A stretch of 56,305 bases of DNA from Actinomycetota bacterium (GTDB lineage Bacteria > Actinomycetota > Geothermincolia > Fen-727 > JAQUKT01). Location: positions 1 through 56,305 of the forward strand of contig JAQUKT010000004.1 of the NCBI GenBank assembly GCA_028718945.1, given 5' to 3'. Below, in pieces: positions 21,829-29,893 of this stretch; positions within the stretch are counted from its first letter, which is position 1; each line of letters starts with the position of its first letter. The notes under the pieces are model-generated. The model was not told where the DNA came from, ran no database searches, and was given only the letters and a program-made list of their open reading frames with translations. Made by a program: the position numbers and the translations under genes.

Positions 21829-24327
21829 TCAAGCCCCACAGCATTTCTTGTACTTCTTTCCGCTTCCGCACGGGCAGGGATCGTTTCTCCCAATTTTCTC
21901 GTGCCGCCGCTGTTGCGGAACTTCCTCCTCACCACCGGAACTCTCAACTACGCTCAATGGCATTCTTTCCCTTTCAACTTCAACGACCTGAGCATGGAAG
22001 ATGTACCTTGCAAATTCCGTCTTTATCGATTCTGTCATTGATTGAAACATGTCGAACGCCTCTGCCTGGTACTCAACAAGCGGGTCGTGTCCTGCCATGC
22101 CCCTCAAACCGATTCCTTCCTGAAGATAATCGAGCTCATAGAGATGCTCCCGCCATTTATTGTCGAGCACCTCGAGCATTACCCATCTCTCCAGTTCCCT
22201 CATCATTTGAGAACCAATCTGCTCTTCCCGCTCCTCATATACCCTCAAGGCATCTTCAACCAGCATATCCTTGAGTTCCTCCTGGCTCATTCCCTCAACA
22301 TCGAGGTCATCGAGCGAGATATTGGTTGGAAATACCTGAGAAATATATGTAAAAAGGCCGCTGAAGTCCCATTCCTCCGGAAAAACCTGCGGATTCGCAA
22401 AAATGTCAACAGCGCTCCCTATTGCCTCCTCGACCCATTCGAGAGCAAGCTGGTGGAACTCTTTCCCTTCAAGAAGGCGATTTCTCTCCCCGTAAACAAC
22501 CTCTCTCTGTTTATTCATCACATCGTCATACTTCAAGAGGTTCTTCCTTATCTCGAAGTTTTGAGCCTCAACCTGCTTCTGGGCTGATTCTATTGCTTTC
22601 GTAACCAACTTGTGTTCGATTGGAATGTCATCGGGAAAATTGAACCTGTCCATCAGGTTTGCTATTGCCTGGGGAGCAAACCTTCGCATCAGGTCATCCT
22701 CCAAAGAAAGATAGAACCTCGAAACACCCGGGTCGCCCTGACGCCCTGAACGACCTCTCAACTGGTTGTCAATTCTTCTCGCTTCGTGCCTTTCAGTCCC
22801 TATTACTTTAAGACCACCGAGTTCAACTACTCCTTCGCCAAGCTTTATGTCGGTTCCCCTTCCAGCCATGTTCGTAGCAATCGTAACCGTGTTCTTCTGC
22901 CCGGCTAAAGCGACTATCTGCGCCTCCCTTTCATGATGTTTGGCATTGAGAACCTGATGCGGTATGCCCTGCTTCTCGAGCATCTTGGAAAGCCTTTCTG
23001 ATTTTTCAATCGAAACAGTCCCCACGAGCACAGGTTGCCCTCTCTCGTAACAAGCGCATATATCGTCCGCCACAGCCTCGAATTTTATCTTTTCCGTTTT
23101 GTAAATCAGGTCCGGCAGGTCTTCTCTTATCATCGGCTCATTCGTAGGGATTACAACCGTATCGAGACCATACGTGAGCTTGAATTCATCAGCCTCCGTC
23201 GCAGCGGTTCCTGTCATTCCCGCTAACTTCTCATACATTCTGAAGTAGTTTTGGAATGTTATCGTCGCAAGAGTCTGGTTTTCTTCCCTTATTCTCACAT
23301 TTTCCTTCGCCTCTATTGCCTGATGGATACCATCCGAGTAACGACGACCCGTCATCAGTCTGCCTGTGAACTCGTCAACTATTATGACCTCGCCATTCTT
23401 TATGATGTATTCAACCTCGTTCTGAAATAGCTCCTTTGCCTTTATCGCGGCATCCAGATGATGAATGAGATTTGCGTAAACATTATCGTAGAGATTATCA
23501 ACTCCAAGAATCTCCTCGACCTTTTCAATCCCCTCCTCGGTAACCGCCACAGTTCTCGTCTTCTCATCAATCTCGTAGTCAACATCGCGCTTGAGTCTCT
23601 TGGCTACCTGAGAAAAGCGCCTGTACCACTTTACTGATTCAGTAGCAGCTCCACTTATGATTAACGGAGTTCGCGCCTCGTCAATGAGAATGCTGTCAAC
23701 CTCATCAACTATCGCATAGTAATGACCCCTCTGCACTTTCTCGTCCAGAGACATGACCATGTTGTCACGAAGATAGTCAAAGCCAAACTCGTTATTCGTT
23801 CCGTAAGTTACATCACAGGCATACTCCCTCTTCCTTTCGGCAGGTCCCATGTGAGCCTGGATAACTCCAACATCCATTTTCAGCGCGCGATAAATCTCAC
23901 CCATCCAGACGCTATCGCGTTTTGCCAGATAGTCGTTCACAGTGACAACGTGAACTCCCGCCTTTGACAGGTGATTGAGAAAAACCGGCAGAGTCGCAAC
24001 AAGCGTCTTTCCTTCGCCGGTCTTCATCTCCGCGATTTTTCCCCGGTGAAGAGCGATCCCTCCCATTATCTGAACGTCAAAGTGTCTCTCCCCGAGCTTT
24101 CTTTTTGCAACTTCACGAACAACAGCAAATGCCTCAGGGAGAAGTTCATCAAGGGACTCGCCGGCTTCATGCCTTGCTCTAAACTCATCAGTCATCGAAG
24201 AAAGGTCTTCATCGGAAAGTTTCTCAAACCGTGGTTCAAGTGAGTTTATGTAACCAACAGCCTCTTCGAGTTCCCTAATCTTCTGGTTCTCGCCAAAACG
24301 CAGCGCTTTCTGAACTGACTTCAGCAT
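21829..24327 (-). CDS. secA: Preprotein translocase subunit SecA
   Basis: [41 protein letters not shown]-terminal SEC-C motif. Confidence 0.98.
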
Positions 24328-25864
24328 CGAAACTCAAATCCTCACCAGATATTCTCGGCAACACCTTCGCGATTGCCCTCAATACCTTGCTATCGTACTT
24401 CACGCCTCTCTCGAGATTCATCTCGGTCAATGCTTCACTCTCGGACAAGGGCTCCTTGTCGTCGCTTCCAGTTATGAGATTCTCAAAATCCTCCGCTGCC
24501 TTCAAAATTCCGGAGCCAACACTAACAGCCCTGCTTTTTCGGGGATCAACGACTCTCTTCTCCAATCCGCCTCTTCCCCTCAGTATCTCCGAAGCAACTT
24601 TTAGGTAATCAACCTTTCCAAGAATATCTTCGCCACCCGAAACGACCTCTTCAACCCCAAGAAGACGGTCCTGCTCAGATACGTGTTCCTCTTCCCTCGC
24701 TATGACACCGATGTCATGAAGATACGCGGCGTATTCCACCTGCCTCGTATCCTCAGGGCCAAGTCCAAGTTCGCGCGCGACCGCTCCCGCAAGAGTTGCG
24801 AGCCGCTTGGAATGACCCGGGGGTATCTTCCCAATTTCCTCCGGAATAACGGAGAGCGTCTTTACCGTGCCCAAAAGATAGATATCAGCAGCAGCAATCC
24901 TGTTGTATGCATATCTTATTACCGCAAGCAAGGGCAGAACAAGAATAACGAACCAGTTTCCAATGCCAATAAACACAAGCCCCATAAGAACACCAAGAAA
25001 ACCAATGGCGATAAACGGAACCCAGTATTTCCTCAATACGCTTGAAAAATAGGCTCCGGCGGGATATTGACCTTCCTTTGAGAGCATATATGAAAGGCGA
25101 AGAACATGGGCAATGAACAGGAAGGCAGCGGCAATCGCTGACGCGATCAGAATCCCGGGCCAGTAATGTCCCTGTAGTTCGGGTTTTTCGGGAAGAACGT
25201 TCAAAAGAAGCCTGTATATCAGCACGAAAGCCCCAACAGCAGAATAATCAAATAACAATTCAAGAATTCTTTCCTTGCTGATTTCTTTATTTCGTTCCGT
25301 TACAAGAGTTACAAGCGAACCGATCAGGAAAATCCAAACGACCTCAACAGCAGGATCTTTGATGGGAAGTGCAACGAGTGCTCCTATGAGAGGGGCAAGA
25401 CCAAGGCTCAACCTCGCACCGTCCCTCAACTCTATGTCGAAGTTCGCGCAAACAGTAAAGAGAACCAGGAAAAAAACCGTGTTCGTGAAATCTATCTTGC
25501 TTACATTCGTAAAAACGATGCTCAATGCAAGAGTAACAAGAGAGGCAATTACCGCAGCAATAAAAACTTTATCCACGCCACCACCACGAACCCCCCGACG
25601 AGATGTAACGCGTTCCTTTCGCTCGTGGCGCTCTTCAGCAGGAGTCTCAACCAGTTCATCAGGCGCACCTTCTGATTCTAAATCCTCAGTCGCAGCCTCT
25701 ATTTCATGCTCTTTAGAACTCTCGCTCGAACTAAAGGATTCTGCTTCACGCCACTCTTCATGGAGAAACGATTCCTGACTACTCTTTCTTCTTTTCTTTC
25801 TTCTCCGCCCTGTCTTCTTTCGTAAACTGGCGGACTCTTTTTCTTCGAATTCTTCTGGTTCCAA
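24275..25864 (-). CDS. Membrane protein with degenerate HD-GYP domain
   Basis: Multi-TM region paralogous to the upstream gene; GHS..HDIG retained, HHE/GYP/AVAD motifs lost; start uncertain. Confidence 0.75.
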
Positions 25865-27392
25865 CTTCCGTCCGCTCCCATCCCTCTATATCCTTTTCTA
25901 TTCCACTCTTTAGCTCCTCATAATGCTCGATACCGCTCACATCTCCGGTTTCTTTCTCTTCGTTGGCAGTCTCCTTTTCCTTGAGAGCCTCCTCGAGCGT
26001 TGGCTGTTCTTCCACAGTAACAGGCTCTTCTTTGACATAAGACTCAGGAACCTTCAGGGGGTCCTGTCGAGCCCCCTCCCATATTCCTTTCCTCACAACA
26101 ATATTTACGAACGCATCCACTACTTCGGGATCAAACTGGATGCCCTTCGCCCTTATTATCTCAGACACCGCACCATAAGCATCAAGCGGTTCCCTTCTCG
26201 GGCTCGGTCTTTGCATTGCATCAAACGCGTCGGCAACCGCGAGAATCCTGGAGCCCATTGGTATCGCATCACCAGCAAGCCCATCAACGTACCCACTTCC
26301 ATCAGTCATCTCGTGGTGATGCAGAACAGCCGGCGCAACAGGCTCTATGGATGATTCTTTCGAAAGTATTTCTCCCGCAATAAGAGGATGTTTCTTGATC
26401 TCCTCCCATTCCTCGGGGCCAAGCATTTCTGCTTTTGCAAAAATCTGAGGGTTCAATGGTAGTTTCCCAATATCATGCAGAAGCGCTGCCCTCCTCATGA
26501 AGTGAATGTCCTCATCGTTCAAGCCCAATTCCTCGGCAATCTCGACCGACATTTCCGCAACCGCTACCGAGTGCCCCTTGCTGAACAAGGAACGTTCCTC
26601 AATAGCTTCCACGACAGCAAGACTGGTTTCATCACAAACATCACGCATTGCCTCATATCTCGTATATACAACTCTCATCCCAAGAAGTGGAGCAAAAAGC
26701 AATACGAGCGCAGGAACTTCGAGCCTCACATAAAGTATCGCCGACAGGAAACCTATAACTGAATAGACGAAGTATGAGAGCAGTTTCGGAAGCATCTTCT
26801 TTAACCAGAAGCGGTAAAGACTCTCGCTCTTACGTGCGAGCAACGGCGTGACAAGGCAGGTATTTACGGCGAAAAAAACTATAGTTGCAAGCAGCCATGG
26901 AAATACGAGACCTCCGGCGTTCTTCAATCCCGGATTTAAGACTTCACCTCCGGTGTGGCTGAAGACCCATGCCGCCAGACCAGCACTGAGGAAGTACTGA
27001 CAGGTATTGAACGCAACTCTCCTTACCCCGCTCTCCTCGCGCTCCATCCAGAAAACGGGTATCCCGAATAGCGAAATGAGAGAAGCAACAAGCGGTCCAG
27101 AAGTCATCATCGCAACCACAACTGGAATCATTGCAAGAGAAAGTCTCCCGCCTCCTTTGAGCGGAAGCGCAAAAAGTTCAGAGGCAAGGAAAAAAAGCCC
27201 CATCAATAGAAGTACCCACCAGTTCTCTTTCTGGTAAGTCAATATGAGTAAGACGAGCACTCCGAGTGAGGCAATGAAAGCCACAGCCATTGTATTGTCG
27301 CGACGCTCACCATCACCAAGGAAACCCGACGTGCCTTTTTTTTCTTTCTTTCCAAACAATTCCTCGTCAAATTCGAGTTTCTTTCCTACCAC
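25779..27392 (-). CDS. Membrane-bound HD-GYP domain protein (putative c-di-GMP phosphodiesterase)
   Basis: Multi-TM N-terminus; GHS, LHDIGK, HP, HHHE.TDGSGYV, RILAVADAFDAM. Confidence 0.88.
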   Translation of the reverse strand: MVGKKLEFDEELFGKKEKKGTSGFLGDGERRDNTMAVAFIASLGVLVLLILTYQKENWWVLLLMGLFFLASELFALPLKGGGRLSLAMIPVVVAMMTSGPLVASLISLFGIPVFWMEREESGVRRVAFNTCQYFLSAGLAAWVFSHTGGEVLNPGLKNAGGLVFPWLLATIVFFAVNTCLVTPLLARKSESLYRFWLKKMLPKLLSYFVYSVIGFLSAILYVRLEVPALVLLFAPLLGMRVVYTRYEAMRDVCDETSLAVVEAIEERSLFSKGHSVAVAEMSVEIAEELGLNDEDIHFMRRAALLHDIGKLPLNPQIFAKAEMLGPEEWEEIKKHPLIAGEILSKESSIEPVAPAVLHHHEMTDGSGYVDGLAGDAIPMGSRILAVADAFDAMQRPSPRREPLDAYGAVSEIIRAKGIQFDPEVVDAFVNIVVRKGIWEGARQDPLKVPESYVKEEPVTVEEQPTLEEALKEKETANEEKETGDVSGIEHYEELKSGIEKDIEGWERTEVGTRRIRRKRVRQFTKEDRAEKKEKKKE

Positions 27393-27480: not shown

Positions 27481-28023
27481 CTATCTATTTGTTTCTATTA
27501 TTCCATGACCCTCGTCCGAGCGGCGATAAGCGATGCAAACGCGGTCAGTCAGGGCATTCAGAAAAACAAAGAAATCATGCCCAAGCATATCCATCTGCAA
27601 AACTGCCTCTTCCGGGTCCATTGGTTTCAACTGTACTTTCTTGTTTCGAATAATCTGCGAACTGTCTATTTTCTCACCTGGCTCCGCAAGAACATATTTT
27701 GCCGTCTTGCTGCCAGAGTGAGTTCTGACAATCTGCTTTTCGTGAAACTTTTTTATCTGGCGCAGCATCTTGTTGGTCGCCTTGTCAATAGCCGCGTACA
27801 TATCATAATCGCGCTCAGCAGCCCTCAGAATAGCCCCGTCCCCGGAAAGCGTAAGATCTACCTTCTGATTTTTCTTGATGCTCGGGTTTTTCTCAACCGC
27901 AAGCCTTACCTCAAGCTCTATAAAGTCAAGTCCAAGTTTTCCTATCTTTGAAACTTTCTCTTCAGTGTAATTCCTCAGCGCCTCGGTTACCTCTAAATTC
28001 TTGCCCTTCACAATGGTTTCCAT
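27481..28023 (-). CDS. hpf: Ribosome hibernation promoting factor (long HPF/RaiA)
   Basis: GKNLEVTEALRNY..EK, DMYAAID, C-terminal LKPMDPEEAVLQMDMLGHDFFVF. Confidence 0.95.
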   Translation of the reverse strand: METIVKGKNLEVTEALRNYTEEKVSKIGKLGLDFIELEVRLAVEKNPSIKKNQKVDLTLSGDGAILRAAERDYDMYAAIDKATNKMLRQIKKFHEKQIVRTHSGSKTAKYVLAEPGEKIDSSQIIRNKKVQLKPMDPEEAVLQMDMLGHDFFVFLNALTDRVCIAYRRSDEGHGIIETNR

Positions 28024-28273
28024 CAGCACCACCCCTCAAAACATACTTCTTGAAGGAACCCTTACCTAACTTGGAAAGTTAGATCTCACACACGCAAATA
28101 CCTTTAGCCCGCATAGTTTTGAACTTACATATCCAACAAGAAACCTCAAAATTTGCCACACAATAGCACGCATCACTTTTTTTTAGACTATCACAGGGCT
28201 CTTCAGGTGTCCACAAAGGAAATCGTGTCATTATCTTCTTAGGAATTGTTACAAATCTGAAAGGGAATAATAA

Positions 28274-28485
28274 GGCGGGTTCCGCTGACCTGGTCTTTGC
28301 CCCCACACTCGCCTGCTGAGGTTTTGCAGGCTTGCCAATTTACAAACCCACGCCACCTTCTCTCCCTTTGAAAGAAGGCAGGACTAACACCTAAGCCGCA
28401 CCATGCTCAGCAACCATTAGTTGCCTTACGTGGGTCGCTTTGCCTGCGGCTGGCATCGACTTTCAACCACAGACCGAAACCCGCC
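28274..28485 (-). ncRNA. raiA-motif RNA (about 212 nt)
   Basis: Minus strand has the raiA-motif blocks as I recall them: GGUCUGUGGUUGAAAGUCGAUGCCAG.CGCAGGCAAA.CGA.CCACGUAAG, GAGCAUGGUGCGGCUUAG, GUCCUGCC, CAGCAGGCGAGUGUGGGG.CAAAGACCAGGUCA; closing stem GGCGGGUU/AACCCGCC; upstream of hpf/raiA. Confidence 0.92.
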
Positions 28486-28510
28486 TACAAAAATATTTTT
28501 AGCCCCTGCC

Positions 28511-28538
28511 ATGTAGCTGACAATATGTAGCTGACAAT
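28511..28538. repeat. Exact 14-bp tandem duplication
   Basis: ATGTAGCTGACAAT twice, between the flgM-like stop and the raiA RNA 5' end. Confidence 0.9.
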
Positions 28539-28542
28539 AGTT

Positions 28543-28812
28543 TCAATCTAATTTGTCCGATATGACTCGCCCGATTATCTTTTTAGCAACCTCGTCACTG
28601 CTCACATCGTAGCTCGAAGACTCAATTGCTTTCTTTACTTTCTCTACTCTATCCTTCCTTACCACAGGAGTATCACCTATTGTTTTCACAACCTCCTTGA
28701 CCGATTCGAGATCTTTCGAGTTTTCCTTTTTTTTGGTCTCGGTCCTTCCAGCATTCTTTTTCTTTTTCAGTGAATCGAGCGTGTTTTGTATTTCCCTGTC
28801 GGACAACTGCAT
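28543..28812 (-). CDS. flgM: FlgM-like anti-sigma-28 factor
   Basis: 89 aa; C-terminal VRKDRVEKVKKAIESSSYDVSSDEVAKKII matches the FlgM R..RV..(I/L)K.AI..G.Y.V...IA..(I/L) pattern; follows comF as in Bacillota. Confidence 0.75.
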   Translation of the reverse strand: MQLSDREIQNTLDSLKKKKNAGRTETKKKENSKDLESVKEVVKTIGDTPVVRKDRVEKVKKAIESSSYDVSSDEVAKKIIGRVISDKLD

Positions 28813-29035: not shown

Positions 29036-29893
29036 TTACTTGCTCTTATAGACTCTCAAAGGCACAAGCGCAGCAACAAGAATGTGAACCGATGTTGCGC
29101 CGCCCGAAAAAAGAGTGGAAGCACACTCGAGAACTGTCGCGCCCGTGGTCAAAACATCATCTACAAGAAGAACTCCCCGGTTTTTCTGTGCATCTCCAGA
29201 TACTTCGAAAGCGCCCTTGACATTCTGCTGGCGACCGGTACGTGGCAACTCGTCCTGATCAAAAGTTTTTCTTGTTTTTACCAGCAACGATGAGCACTTC
29301 CTTCCGAAATGCGAAGATACTGCGCGAGCGAGCAATTCCGCGGGGTTATAACCCCTTTCCGTGACCTTTTTCCTTTCGGATGGCACAAATGTAATTATAT
29401 CCGGGTGAGAAAATGAGGGGTCATTCCCGCAAGCAACCACCATCATTCTACCAAGTGGAATGGCACTCTCCCTGTAGCCGGACTTGAGTTTCATCACGAG
29501 TTCTCTTGTTTCTCCCCTGTACTCACCTCCCGCCCTTACGCCTGATACCTTGCAAATATCACAAATCTCTTCAAGGGCATACTCGTACTGGGATGTTTTC
29601 GTGGAAGAAACCTTTTTCTCAAGACAACTTGAGCAAAGTAACCCCGTGCCTTGCAAACCACAGCAGACACATTTTGAAGGGAAAACCAGTTCGATAAGCT
29701 CTCTTTTTGCTTGCTGAAGACCCTTTTTTGAACAAACGCTCAGTAGCAAAGGAGATTCACGCACCTGTTCTAACCGTTCCCGTAGGATTCCGCAGGAAAT
29801 GTTTTGGCAAGTTTTTGCTTGCTCTGCTAATATAGAATACAGGAATTCCCTAAATAAATCAAGAGCCGTGAAGACTATGGAGGCTTTTTTCAA
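29036..29893 (-). CDS. comF: ComF family amidophosphoribosyltransferase-like protein
   Basis: CVCCG/CSSC zinc motif, VP...RGYNPA, R..NVKGAF, LLVDDVLTTGAT; true start probably internal. Confidence 0.88.
   Translation of the reverse strand: MKKASIVFTALDLFREFLYSILAEQAKTCQNISCGILRERLEQVRESPLLLSVCSKKGLQQAKRELIELVFPSKCVCCGLQGTGLLCSSCLEKKVSSTKTSQYEYALEEICDICKVSGVRAGGEYRGETRELVMKLKSGYRESAIPLGRMMVVACGNDPSFSHPDIITFVPSERKKVTERGYNPAELLARAVSSHFGRKCSSLLVKTRKTFDQDELPRTGRQQNVKGAFEVSGDAQKNRGVLLVDDVLTTGATVLECASTLFSGGATSVHILVAALVPLRVYKSK

What the first reader, a model, noticed from the sequence alone, without database searches (positions are those of the whole stretch)
28274..28485. raiA-motif large structured ncRNA hidden between flgM and hpf
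Seen: about 212 nt matching the conserved raiA-motif blocks, with a closing stem. Known: raiA-motif RNA is a highly conserved, compactly folded RNA of Bacillota and Actinomycetota whose biochemical function is unresolved. Unusual here: flgM lies between it and comF, about 250 nt separate it from hpf, and its variable region (UUCUUUCAAAGGGAGAGAAGG..GGGUUUGUAAAUUGGCAAGCCU) comes from a little-sampled lineage.
Basis: partly seen in the sequence, partly recalled or inferred. Interest (0 to 1): 0.72.

Follow-up and report, generated by a model that had tools for sequence, protein, structure and literature searches.

The report
Ordinary raiA (ModT) noncoding RNA gene
The flagged stretch is a genuine, full-length copy of the known raiA/ModT structured RNA in an uncultured anaerobic actinobacterium, so it is an ordinary family member, but comparing loci showed that raiA RNA genes repeatedly sit next to HD-GYP (c-di-GMP-degrading type) genes.

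Summary
Window 28483..28276 (minus strand) is a full-length raiA-motif RNA (ModT, Rfam RF03072). It scores 171.5 bits against a gathering score of 101.3, E 1.9e-43. The order on the minus strand is comFC-like, flgM, raiA RNA, hpf, two HD-domain membrane genes, secA.

The flgM position is not peculiar to this genome. All 10 related loci with enough upstream sequence show comFC-flgM-raiA-(csp)-hpf-HD-HD-secA, each with a raiA hit of 166-180 bits. These relatives are Geothermincolia-like Actinomycetota MAGs. Family-wide, flgM directly upstream is rare (3 of 87 metagenome loci). Weinberg 2017 already noted flagellar genes upstream of raiA RNAs, and comF-flgM adjacency is known in B. subtilis.

The RNA is the no-P2, P7+P8 subtype. 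Ten lineage sequences support the fold (95% paired, 21 compensatory pairs). There is no RNA-seq for this organism, so transcript ends are inferred only.

Side lead: an HD-GYP gene lies within a few kb of raiA in 22 of 83 dereplicated loci, in three layouts, and none elsewhere on those contigs. Two loci fetched starting from the HD-GYP protein also carried raiA. This fits the published rise of c-di-GMP in a modT deletion. The papers searched do not mention it.

The parts
28276..28483 (-). raiA-motif / ModT structured noncoding RNA, 208 nt. It is the subtype without P2 and with the P7-P8 domain.
   Evidence: Rfam RF03072 scores 171.5 bits, E 1.9e-43, full model. Ten lineage sequences are 95.2% paired on the family structure, with 21 pairs showing compensatory changes; slid controls give 36-42%.
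28495..28523 (-). Promoter-like site, TTGTCA-N17-AAAAAT. Its -10 element ends 11 nt before the first base of P1.
   Evidence: Consensus scan. A -10-like hexamer ends 11-14 nt before the RNA in 6 of 9 lineage loci. This is inferred only; no transcript data exist.
28511..28538 (.). Perfect tandem duplication of a 14-nt unit (ATGTAGCTGACAAT on the + strand), giving two copies of the -35-like TTGTCA.
   Evidence: Read directly from the sequence. Not present in relatives.
28543..28812 (-). flgM (anti-sigma-28 factor), 89 aa. Its stop codon lies 59 nt before the RNA.
   Evidence: Pfam PF04316, E 7e-11. An FlgM gene occupies the same position in L081 and L083-L091.
29036..29893 (-). comFC-like phosphoribosyltransferase gene. 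The ORF start is uncertain because relatives are 224-235 aa.
   Evidence: Pfam Pribosyltran E 7.8e-06, below the curated cut-off. Orthologous position in relatives, some with DZR_2 plus Pribosyltran.
28185..28213 (-). Second promoter-like site, TGGACA-N17-TAGTCT (with TGA just before the -10), between the RNA and hpf. The matching site precedes a csp gene in relatives.
   Evidence: Read from the sequence and from alignment A2. Inferred.
27481..28023 (-). hpf / raiA long-form ribosome hibernation factor, 180 aa from the ATG.
   Evidence: Pfam PF02482 plus PF16321. The 180-aa form is the one on record (P0001).
25779..27392 (-). Membrane (MASE9-like) HD-GYP-type protein with motif HHHEMTDGSGYV.
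   Evidence: Pfam HD_5 E 1.4e-32 and MASE9 E 1.1e-05. Motif alignment A5.
24275..25864 (-). Paralogous membrane HD_5 protein lacking the HHE and GYP motifs (degenerate).
   Evidence: Pfam HD_5 E 1.8e-11. Alignment A5.
21829..24327 (-). secA, the end of the conserved block.
   Evidence: ORF translation. SecA Pfam families at the same position in relatives.

Best explanation
Window 28483..28276 (minus strand) is the gene for a raiA-motif RNA (ModT). This is a roughly 208-nt, compactly folded, trans-acting noncoding RNA. It sits in its usual chromosomal neighbourhood, comFC upstream and hpf/raiA downstream, in an uncultured Geothermincolia-like actinobacterium from a landfill metagenome. By homology with the studied Clostridium and Clostridioides RNAs, it is most likely made as its own abundant, stable transcript. 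The probable start is a housekeeping-type promoter about 5 nt upstream of the closing stem P1. The RNA most likely acts in trans on the switch from growth to stationary phase, possibly as an RNP with KhpA/KhpB-type proteins and with effects on c-di-GMP level. Shown here: identity, fold, subtype and conserved synteny. Inferred: promoter, independent transcription and physiological role.
For: The full-length Rfam hit is 70 bits above threshold. The family's hallmark features can be read in the sequence: P1a, a GU bulge, P1b, a GGU bulge and P1c; GAAA directly after P1c; a 7-bp AGCCGCA/UGCGGCU pairing; and the UUAGGUGUUAG linker (features as described in PMC12968392). Eleven relatives carry a raiA hit of 166-180 bits at the same position. 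The fold shows covariation, with 21 compensatory pairs, 0 of 500 shuffles reaching the observed values, and slid controls at 36-42% paired. Neighbours were identified by Pfam. Promoter-like sites lie just upstream of the RNA and again between the RNA and hpf. In relatives, a csp gene and/or long REP-like hairpins separate the RNA from hpf, which argues against a leader function. Published work shows trans action, high abundance and stationary-phase, sporulation and c-di-GMP phenotypes (PMC10861870, PMC11706538).
Against: There is no transcript evidence for this organism. Only one landfill DNA run holds the window, and the RNA runs hold only other organisms' conserved blocks. No terminator-like hairpin follows the RNA or flgM in the window. 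The promoter-like site is only a 9-of-12 match, and 3 of 9 relatives show no convincing site at that spacing. The physiological role is transferred from Clostridia to a distant phylum.
Confidence: 0.92

Rival explanations
1. The RNA has no promoter of its own. It is the 3' part of a comFC-flgM transcript (or a flgM transcript from a sigma-28-type promoter) and is released by processing at its closing stem.
For: It is on the same strand as flgM and only 59 nt after the flgM stop (59-164 nt in relatives). No terminator-like site lies between them. Weinberg 2017 notes that the upstream gene is usually on the same strand. C. difficile ModT has a processed short isoform.
Against: A -35/-10-like pair sits at the right distance in the window, and a -10-like hexamer sits 11-14 nt upstream of the RNA in 6 of 9 relatives. 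The C. difficile RNA has its own SigA transcription start site.
Confidence: 0.2
2. It is a cis-acting leader or riboswitch controlling hpf, which is how Rfam labels the family type.
For: It is on the same strand as hpf and upstream of it. Rfam's type label is 'Cis-reg; riboswitch'. No terminator lies between the RNA and hpf in the window.
Against: There is a 252-nt gap with a conserved promoter-like site inside it. In 7 of 11 relatives a csp gene lies between the RNA and hpf, and in several a long hairpin follows the RNA. No expression platform is present. Published complementation in trans and variable neighbours also argue against it.
Confidence: 0.04
3. It is a chance resemblance or a decayed, non-functional copy.
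For: None beyond the lack of expression data.
Against: E 1.9e-43 with full-length coverage. The core is nearly invariant and the stems show compensatory changes across relatives whose Hpf proteins are only 46-70% identical.
Confidence: 0.01

Closest known systems
raiA motif RNA / ModT, Rfam RF03072. The closest studied example by subtype is the 204-nt Clostridium acetobutylicum RNA (Ca-raiA; PMC10861870, PMC12968392).
   Same: Full model match. Same length class (208 nt). No P2, with GAAA directly after P1c. A short hairpin plus a long hairpin follow the conserved UUAG..GU..AG linker. P1 has GU and GGU bulges. comFC lies upstream and hpf downstream on the same strand.
   Different: The host is a deep-branching anaerobic actinobacterial lineage, not Clostridia. 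The long hairpin has a 3x3 internal loop (GGC/AAA) where clostridial members have the AGUA/GAA E-loop. High-GC actinobacterial members in my sample also lack AGUA, so this is within family variation. flgM is inserted between comFC and the RNA.
Nocardioides sp. Iso805N raiA RNA (Ns-raiA, 253 nt; PMC12968392), the studied actinobacterial member.
   Same: Same phylum and the same conserved core and P1.
   Different: Ns-raiA has an extra P2 and a 14-bp P7. The window RNA has neither.
B. subtilis comF - flgM ... hpf(yvyD) - secA region.
   Same: comFC is immediately followed by flgM on the same strand, with hpf and secA further downstream. Read-through from comF into flgM is documented (PMC12265714). 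The hpf-secA part of that gene order is from my own knowledge of the B. subtilis map.
   Different: B. subtilis has a long flagellar gene block between flgM and hpf and has no raiA RNA. Here only flgM remains and the RNA follows it.

Membership tests
raiA motif RNA (RF03072) | Covariance-model score at or above Rfam's gathering score, full length | tested here: met
   171.5 bits against 101.3, model positions 1-209 of 209, E 1.9e-43.
raiA motif RNA (RF03072) | Closing stem P1 in three segments, separated by a GU bulge (5' strand) and a GGU bulge (3' strand) | tested here: met
   The sequence reads CGGGUUUCG-GU-CUG-UGGUU ... GACCA-GGU-CAG-CGGAACCCG. P1a has 8 pairs with compensatory changes among 10 relatives. 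Feature definition from PMC12968392.
raiA motif RNA (RF03072) | GAA(A) turn directly after P1c (or P2 inserted there) | tested here: met
   G20-A21-A22-A23 is invariant in the lineage and there is no insertion, so the RNA is the no-P2 subtype (definition).
raiA motif RNA (RF03072) | Conserved core pairings, including the 7-bp helix that Rfam draws between positions 33-39 and 84-90, and the conserved single-stranded UUAGNNGUAA linker. I read that helix as PK1 of He et al.; this assignment is my inference. | tested here: met
   AGCCGCA/UGCGGCU is 100% paired in 10 sequences, with one pair varying on one side only (helix 4). The linker reads UUAGGUGUUAG against the consensus UUAGAaGUAA. Invariant pairs neither support nor contradict the structure.
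raiA motif RNA (RF03072) | Peripheral P7-P8 domain (present in 68% of members), often with an E-loop | tested here: inconclusive
   Both hairpins are present and covary (helices 7-9). The AGUA/GAA E-loop signature is replaced by GGC/AAA, and the two conserved UA model positions are deleted. The E-loop is described as frequent, not obligatory.
raiA motif RNA (RF03072) | Typical neighbourhood: comFC upstream (74%) and raiA/hpf downstream (66%) | tested here: met
   Pfam on the neighbours. Percentages from PMC10861870.
raiA motif RNA (RF03072) | Single copy per genome | not testable with these tools
   One copy in the 56-kb window.
raiA motif RNA (RF03072) | Abundant, discrete, independently transcribed RNA acting in trans | not testable with these tools
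   No RNA run holds this organism. Only promoter-like motifs are available.
Riboswitch / cis-regulatory leader | Sits directly before the regulated ORF with an expression platform (terminator or SD-sequestering helix) | tested here: not met
   252 nt to hpf, no terminator-like site, and a flank fold z-score of -0.46. In relatives a csp gene or a promoter-like site lies between them.

The most novel reading that the evidence does not exclude
raiA/ModT RNA may be functionally coupled to HD-GYP-type c-di-GMP phosphodiesterases. An HD-GYP gene with an intact HHExxDGxGYP-type motif lies within -2.5/+5 kb of the RNA gene in 22 of 83 dereplicated raiA loci. It occurs in at least three layouts. In Acidaminococcaceae-like contigs and a second low-GC group, a stand-alone ~200-aa protein is encoded divergently 120-500 nt upstream. 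In the window's actinobacterial lineage and two other contigs, a MASE9-HD-GYP gene follows hpf. The pairing survives loss of comFC synteny (L212). The RNA and the enzyme could be co-regulated, or could act on each other, for example with the RNA or RNP tuning phosphodiesterase activity or expression. That would explain why deleting modT raises c-di-GMP in C. difficile.
Probability: 0.17. Interest if true: 0.75.

Novelty: new member of a known kind. Interest (0 to 1): 0.3.

Why it matters
The element itself adds one more lineage (Geothermincolia-like, anaerobic, uncultured Actinomycetota) to a well-described RNA family. It shows that this deep actinobacterial branch carries the P2-less form also seen in Clostridia, not the P2-bearing form of Nocardioides. 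The function of raiA/ModT is still an open question, and published analyses concluded that gene neighbourhood gives no unifying clue. The recurrent HD-GYP neighbour seen here is a concrete, cheaply testable lead. It lines up with the one mechanistic result so far, that c-di-GMP rises when modT is deleted. In this lineage the RNA sits inside a block of stationary-phase, motility and second-messenger genes: flgM, csp, hpf and HD-GYP.

Tried and rejected
1. Copy number, KhpA/KhpB, flagellar genes and relatives by taxonomy could therefore not be checked in the genome.

It returned mostly distant Bacilli and Negativicutes. None of those 79 loci has raiA within 4 kb of hpf, so I used them only as a control.

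3. Exact look-up of the window's 183-aa Hpf found nothing because the recorded gene starts at the ATG.

4. Expression could not be assessed. Only a landfill DNA run holds the window. The RNA runs hold short contigs of other organisms' raiA cores, which is no evidence for this organism.

5. The supplement of Soares 2024, which holds the neighbour table, is not held as text.

6. RNAalifold on the 10 sequences mis-paired invariant P1b/c with the core. I used the Rfam structure instead.

7. I considered the missing E-loop to be a lineage novelty and rejected this. High-GC actinobacterial members also lack AGUA. The parse was crude, covering 31 of 83 clusters.

8. The first clustering of raiA loci chained through truncated copies and was redone.

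9. I considered and rejected 'flgM insertion is unique to this genome'. It is lineage-wide.

Full report
OBSERVATION. Rfam cmscan of the whole window gives one raiA (RF03072) match at 28483..28276 on the minus strand. It covers model positions 1-209 of 209, scores 171.5 bits against a gathering score of 101.3, and has E 1.9e-43. The only other hits in the window are three tRNAs.

On the same strand the ORFs, with Pfam assignments, run in this order:
- ahcY;
- a class II aldolase-like gene;
- mtnA;
- a comFC-like phosphoribosyltransferase gene (29036-29893);
- flgM (28543-28812, PF04316, E 7e-11);
- the RNA;
- hpf (27481-28023, PF02482 plus PF16321);
- two membrane HD_5 proteins (25779-27392 and 24275-25864);
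- secA.

The flgM stop lies 59 nt before the RNA, and the hpf ATG lies 252 nt after it.

ANATOMY. The hallmark features of the family can be read directly from the Rfam alignment and from published descriptions (PMC12968392).
- The closing stem reads CGGGUUUCG / GU bulge / CUG / UGGUU on the 5' side. On the 3' side it reads GACCA / GGU bulge / CAG / CGGAACCCG.
- GAAA follows P1c directly, so there is no P2.
- The 7-bp AGCCGCA/UGCGGCU pairing is present. I read it as PK1 of He et al.; that assignment is my inference.
- The linker is UUAGGUGUUAG.
- A three-way domain follows: CCUGC/GCAGG, a 5-bp hairpin, and a long hairpin.

This is the 'no P2, with P7-P8' subtype, like the 204-nt C. acetobutylicum RNA. 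In the long hairpin the two conserved UA positions of the family's E-loop strand are deleted. The lineage has a 3x3 loop, GGC/AAA, instead. High-GC actinobacterial raiA RNAs in my metagenome sample also lack the AGUA signature (a crude parse), so I do not treat this as a novelty.

RELATIVES AND LINEAGE. The closest Hpf proteins in the 5.8-billion-protein collection are 70% identical (one cluster) and then about 57% and below. Where named, the records are 'Actinobacteria bacterium', 'Candidatus Anoxymicrobiaceae' and 'Candidatus Geothermincolia' MAGs. NCBI taxonomy places these in Actinomycetota, class Geothermincolia. Earlier notes on the same genome reached the same placement. The window occurs only in one landfill metagenome DNA run.

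I fetched eleven loci around those Hpf genes, L081-L091. L082 starts too close to hpf to show the upstream genes. The other ten all show comFC-like, flgM, a gap, optionally csp, hpf, two HD_5 genes, then secA or the end of the fetched stretch. Rfam finds a full-length raiA RNA of 166-180 bits in the gap of every one of these, and in L002. The flgM position is therefore a fixed trait of the lineage, not a peculiarity of this genome.

Ten lineage RNAs were aligned (A3). The core is nearly invariant. Variation is concentrated in P1a and the two peripheral hairpins. On the Rfam-derived structure:
- 95.2% of cells are paired;
- 21 pairs show changes on both sides;
- 0 of 500 shuffles reach the observed values;
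- slid controls give 36-42% paired.

TRANSCRIPTION SIGNALS (INFERRED). A sigma-70-like site, TTGTCA-N17-AAAAAT, ends 11 nt before P1. A -10-like hexamer ends 11-14 nt before the RNA in 6 of 9 lineage loci. The -35-like hexamer lies in a perfect 14-nt tandem duplication (28511-28538) that is unique to the window.

A second promoter-like site, TGGACA-N17-TAGTCT (28213..28185), lies between the RNA and hpf. The aligned site precedes a csp gene in relatives. That csp gene is absent from the window and from L081, L087 and L090.

No terminator-like hairpin follows the RNA in the window (flank fold z -0.46). In L083, L087 and L091 a long GGGGUCAGG...CCUGACCCC palindrome follows it (z -3.3 to -7.5).

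No RNA-seq run contains this organism. The RNA runs listed hold only short contigs matching conserved blocks of other organisms' raiA RNAs.

Together these points favour an independent transcription unit, as shown experimentally for C. difficile (own SigA start site, two 3' isoforms). They argue against a leader of hpf. Processing from a comFC-flgM transcript remains possible.

WHAT IS KNOWN. The main published points are these:
- The raiA motif was described in 2017. [quoted passage not shown]
- Soares 2024 found the motif in 2,720 species, with comFC upstream in 74% and raiA downstream in 66%. It showed an abundant trans-acting RNA with sporulation and aggregation defects on deletion (PMC10861870).
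- Lence 2024 renamed it ModT and linked its deletion to raised c-di-GMP through dccA (PMC11706538).
- He 2026 solved structures of three subtypes and showed KhpA-KhpB binding (PMC12968392).
- comF lying immediately upstream of flgM, with read-through, is documented in B. subtilis (PMC12265714).

The window element is therefore an ordinary member in the family's usual place. Other agents in this scan reached the same verdict for raiA loci in about 40 other genomes, one of them in a flgM-csp gap.

HOW UNUSUAL IS flgM? A metagenome scan with the 26-nt 5' core returned 120 raiA loci. For 87 of them I took the nearest same-strand upstream ORF and scanned it against Pfam. The tally was:
- ComFC-type Pribosyltran in 12;
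- DUF436 in 11;
- GT2-type glycosyltransferases in about 9;
- FlgM in only 3;
- FlgN in 1.

The three FlgM loci found by tblastn (L132, L162, L183) also carry ComFC at 40-65% identity to the window's, and two of them carry MtnA at 58-61%, so they look like the window's relatives. flgM directly upstream is thus rare family-wide but fixed in this lineage.

SIDE LEAD: HD-GYP NEIGHBOURS. I ran tblastn of the window's proteins on the oriented raiA loci. This unexpectedly found homologues of the first HD_5 protein next to raiA in many unrelated, low-GC contigs. I then dereplicated at 95% raiA identity, giving 83 clusters.
- 22 clusters have such a gene within 2.5 kb upstream or 5 kb downstream.
- That is 13 of 70 clusters outside the window's lineage, and 8 of 15 clusters with GC below 0.45.
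- No such hit occurs in the 186 kb of the same contigs outside that zone (binomial p 2.5e-4).
- Only 1 of 79 hpf loci without raiA has one. That control set is taxonomically different.

Pfam and motif alignment show these are HD-GYP domains with HHE(K/R)WDG(T/S)GYP or, in the window's lineage, HHHE..DGSGY(V/P). The window's second paralogue lacks both motifs.

The layouts differ:
- A stand-alone protein of about 200 aa is encoded divergently 120-500 nt upstream of the RNA, between comFC and the RNA. It occurs in two low-GC groups; one is Acidaminococcaceae-like according to the names.
- A MASE9-HD-GYP gene follows hpf in the window's lineage and in L139 and L187.

L190 reads recD2, comFC, HD-GYP (opposite strand), raiA, amino-acid ABC transporter, csp, hpf, secA.

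As a prediction test I started from HD-GYP homologues 63-65% identical to the L094 protein, found in independent assemblies. Rfam then finds raiA divergent from them, 225 and 166 nt away, at 195 and 186 bits. In L212 comFC is no longer nearby, but the RNA-HD-GYP pair persists.

None of the papers searched mentions HD-GYP together with raiA/ModT.

Caveats:
- clusters within a bacterial family are not independent;
- the link may be co-regulation or inherited synteny and not a direct interaction.

VERDICT. The element is a new member of a known family, in its canonical context, with a lineage-wide flgM insertion that has precedents. Interest is low to moderate. The only part that could matter for the open question of raiA function is the recurrent HD-GYP neighbourhood, which needs a systematic, phylogeny-aware test.

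Noticed in passing
window 25779-27392 and 24275-25864; L094, L105, L114, L125, L127, L139, L175, L185, L187, L190, L201, L210, L212, L214: HD-GYP (Pfam HD_5) genes are recurrent neighbours of raiA RNA genes. They occur in 22 of 83 dereplicated loci, in three different layouts, with none elsewhere on the same contigs. Two loci fetched by starting from the HD-GYP protein also carry raiA. The papers searched do not mention this.
   Followed up: partly
L083:4530-4610, L087:3024-3108, L091:3015-3090: Long palindromic hairpins built on GGGGTCAGG...CCTGACCCC directly follow the raiA RNA in several relatives (fold z -3.3 to -7.5). The window has none at that spot. They resemble the REP-like family another reader noted at transcript 3' ends elsewhere in this window.
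   Followed up: partly
window 28033-28275, compared with L083:4673-4876, L088:3173-3376, L089:2724-2927, L091:3174-3377 and L002 from about position 300: A cold-shock (CSD) gene lies between the raiA RNA and hpf in 7 of 11 relatives. It is missing in the window and in L081, L087 and L090. The window keeps the promoter-like TGGACA-N17-TAGTCT that precedes csp elsewhere, so this site now faces hpf.
   Followed up: partly
window 28511-28538: A perfect tandem duplication of a 14-nt unit lies just upstream of the RNA and doubles the -35-like TTGTCA. It is absent from relatives. It could be a recent slip or an operator-like repeat.
   Followed up: no
window 24275-25864: The second membrane HD_5 protein has lost the HHE and GYP motifs while keeping the first H and the HD. 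A possible reading is a degenerate receptor or partner of the intact paralogue. The pair is conserved in all relatives.
   Followed up: partly
L092-L211 (metagenome raiA loci): DUF436 (PF04260) is the nearest same-strand upstream ORF in 11 of 87 raiA loci, and GT2 glycosyltransferases in about 9. These are other recurrent neighbours that I did not dereplicate or examine.
   Followed up: no
window 28276-28483 against soil, peat and wetland metatranscriptome runs X4, X5, X8: Short metatranscriptome contigs (about 60-240 nt, word depth up to about 2000) match only the conserved raiA blocks at 80-95% identity. Other organisms' raiA RNAs are therefore readily detected in environmental RNA.
   Followed up: no
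window 29036-29893: The comFC-like ORF is 285 aa from its first start codon and overlaps the end of mtnA by 35 nt, whereas orthologues are 224-235 aa. The true start is probably further downstream.
   Followed up: no
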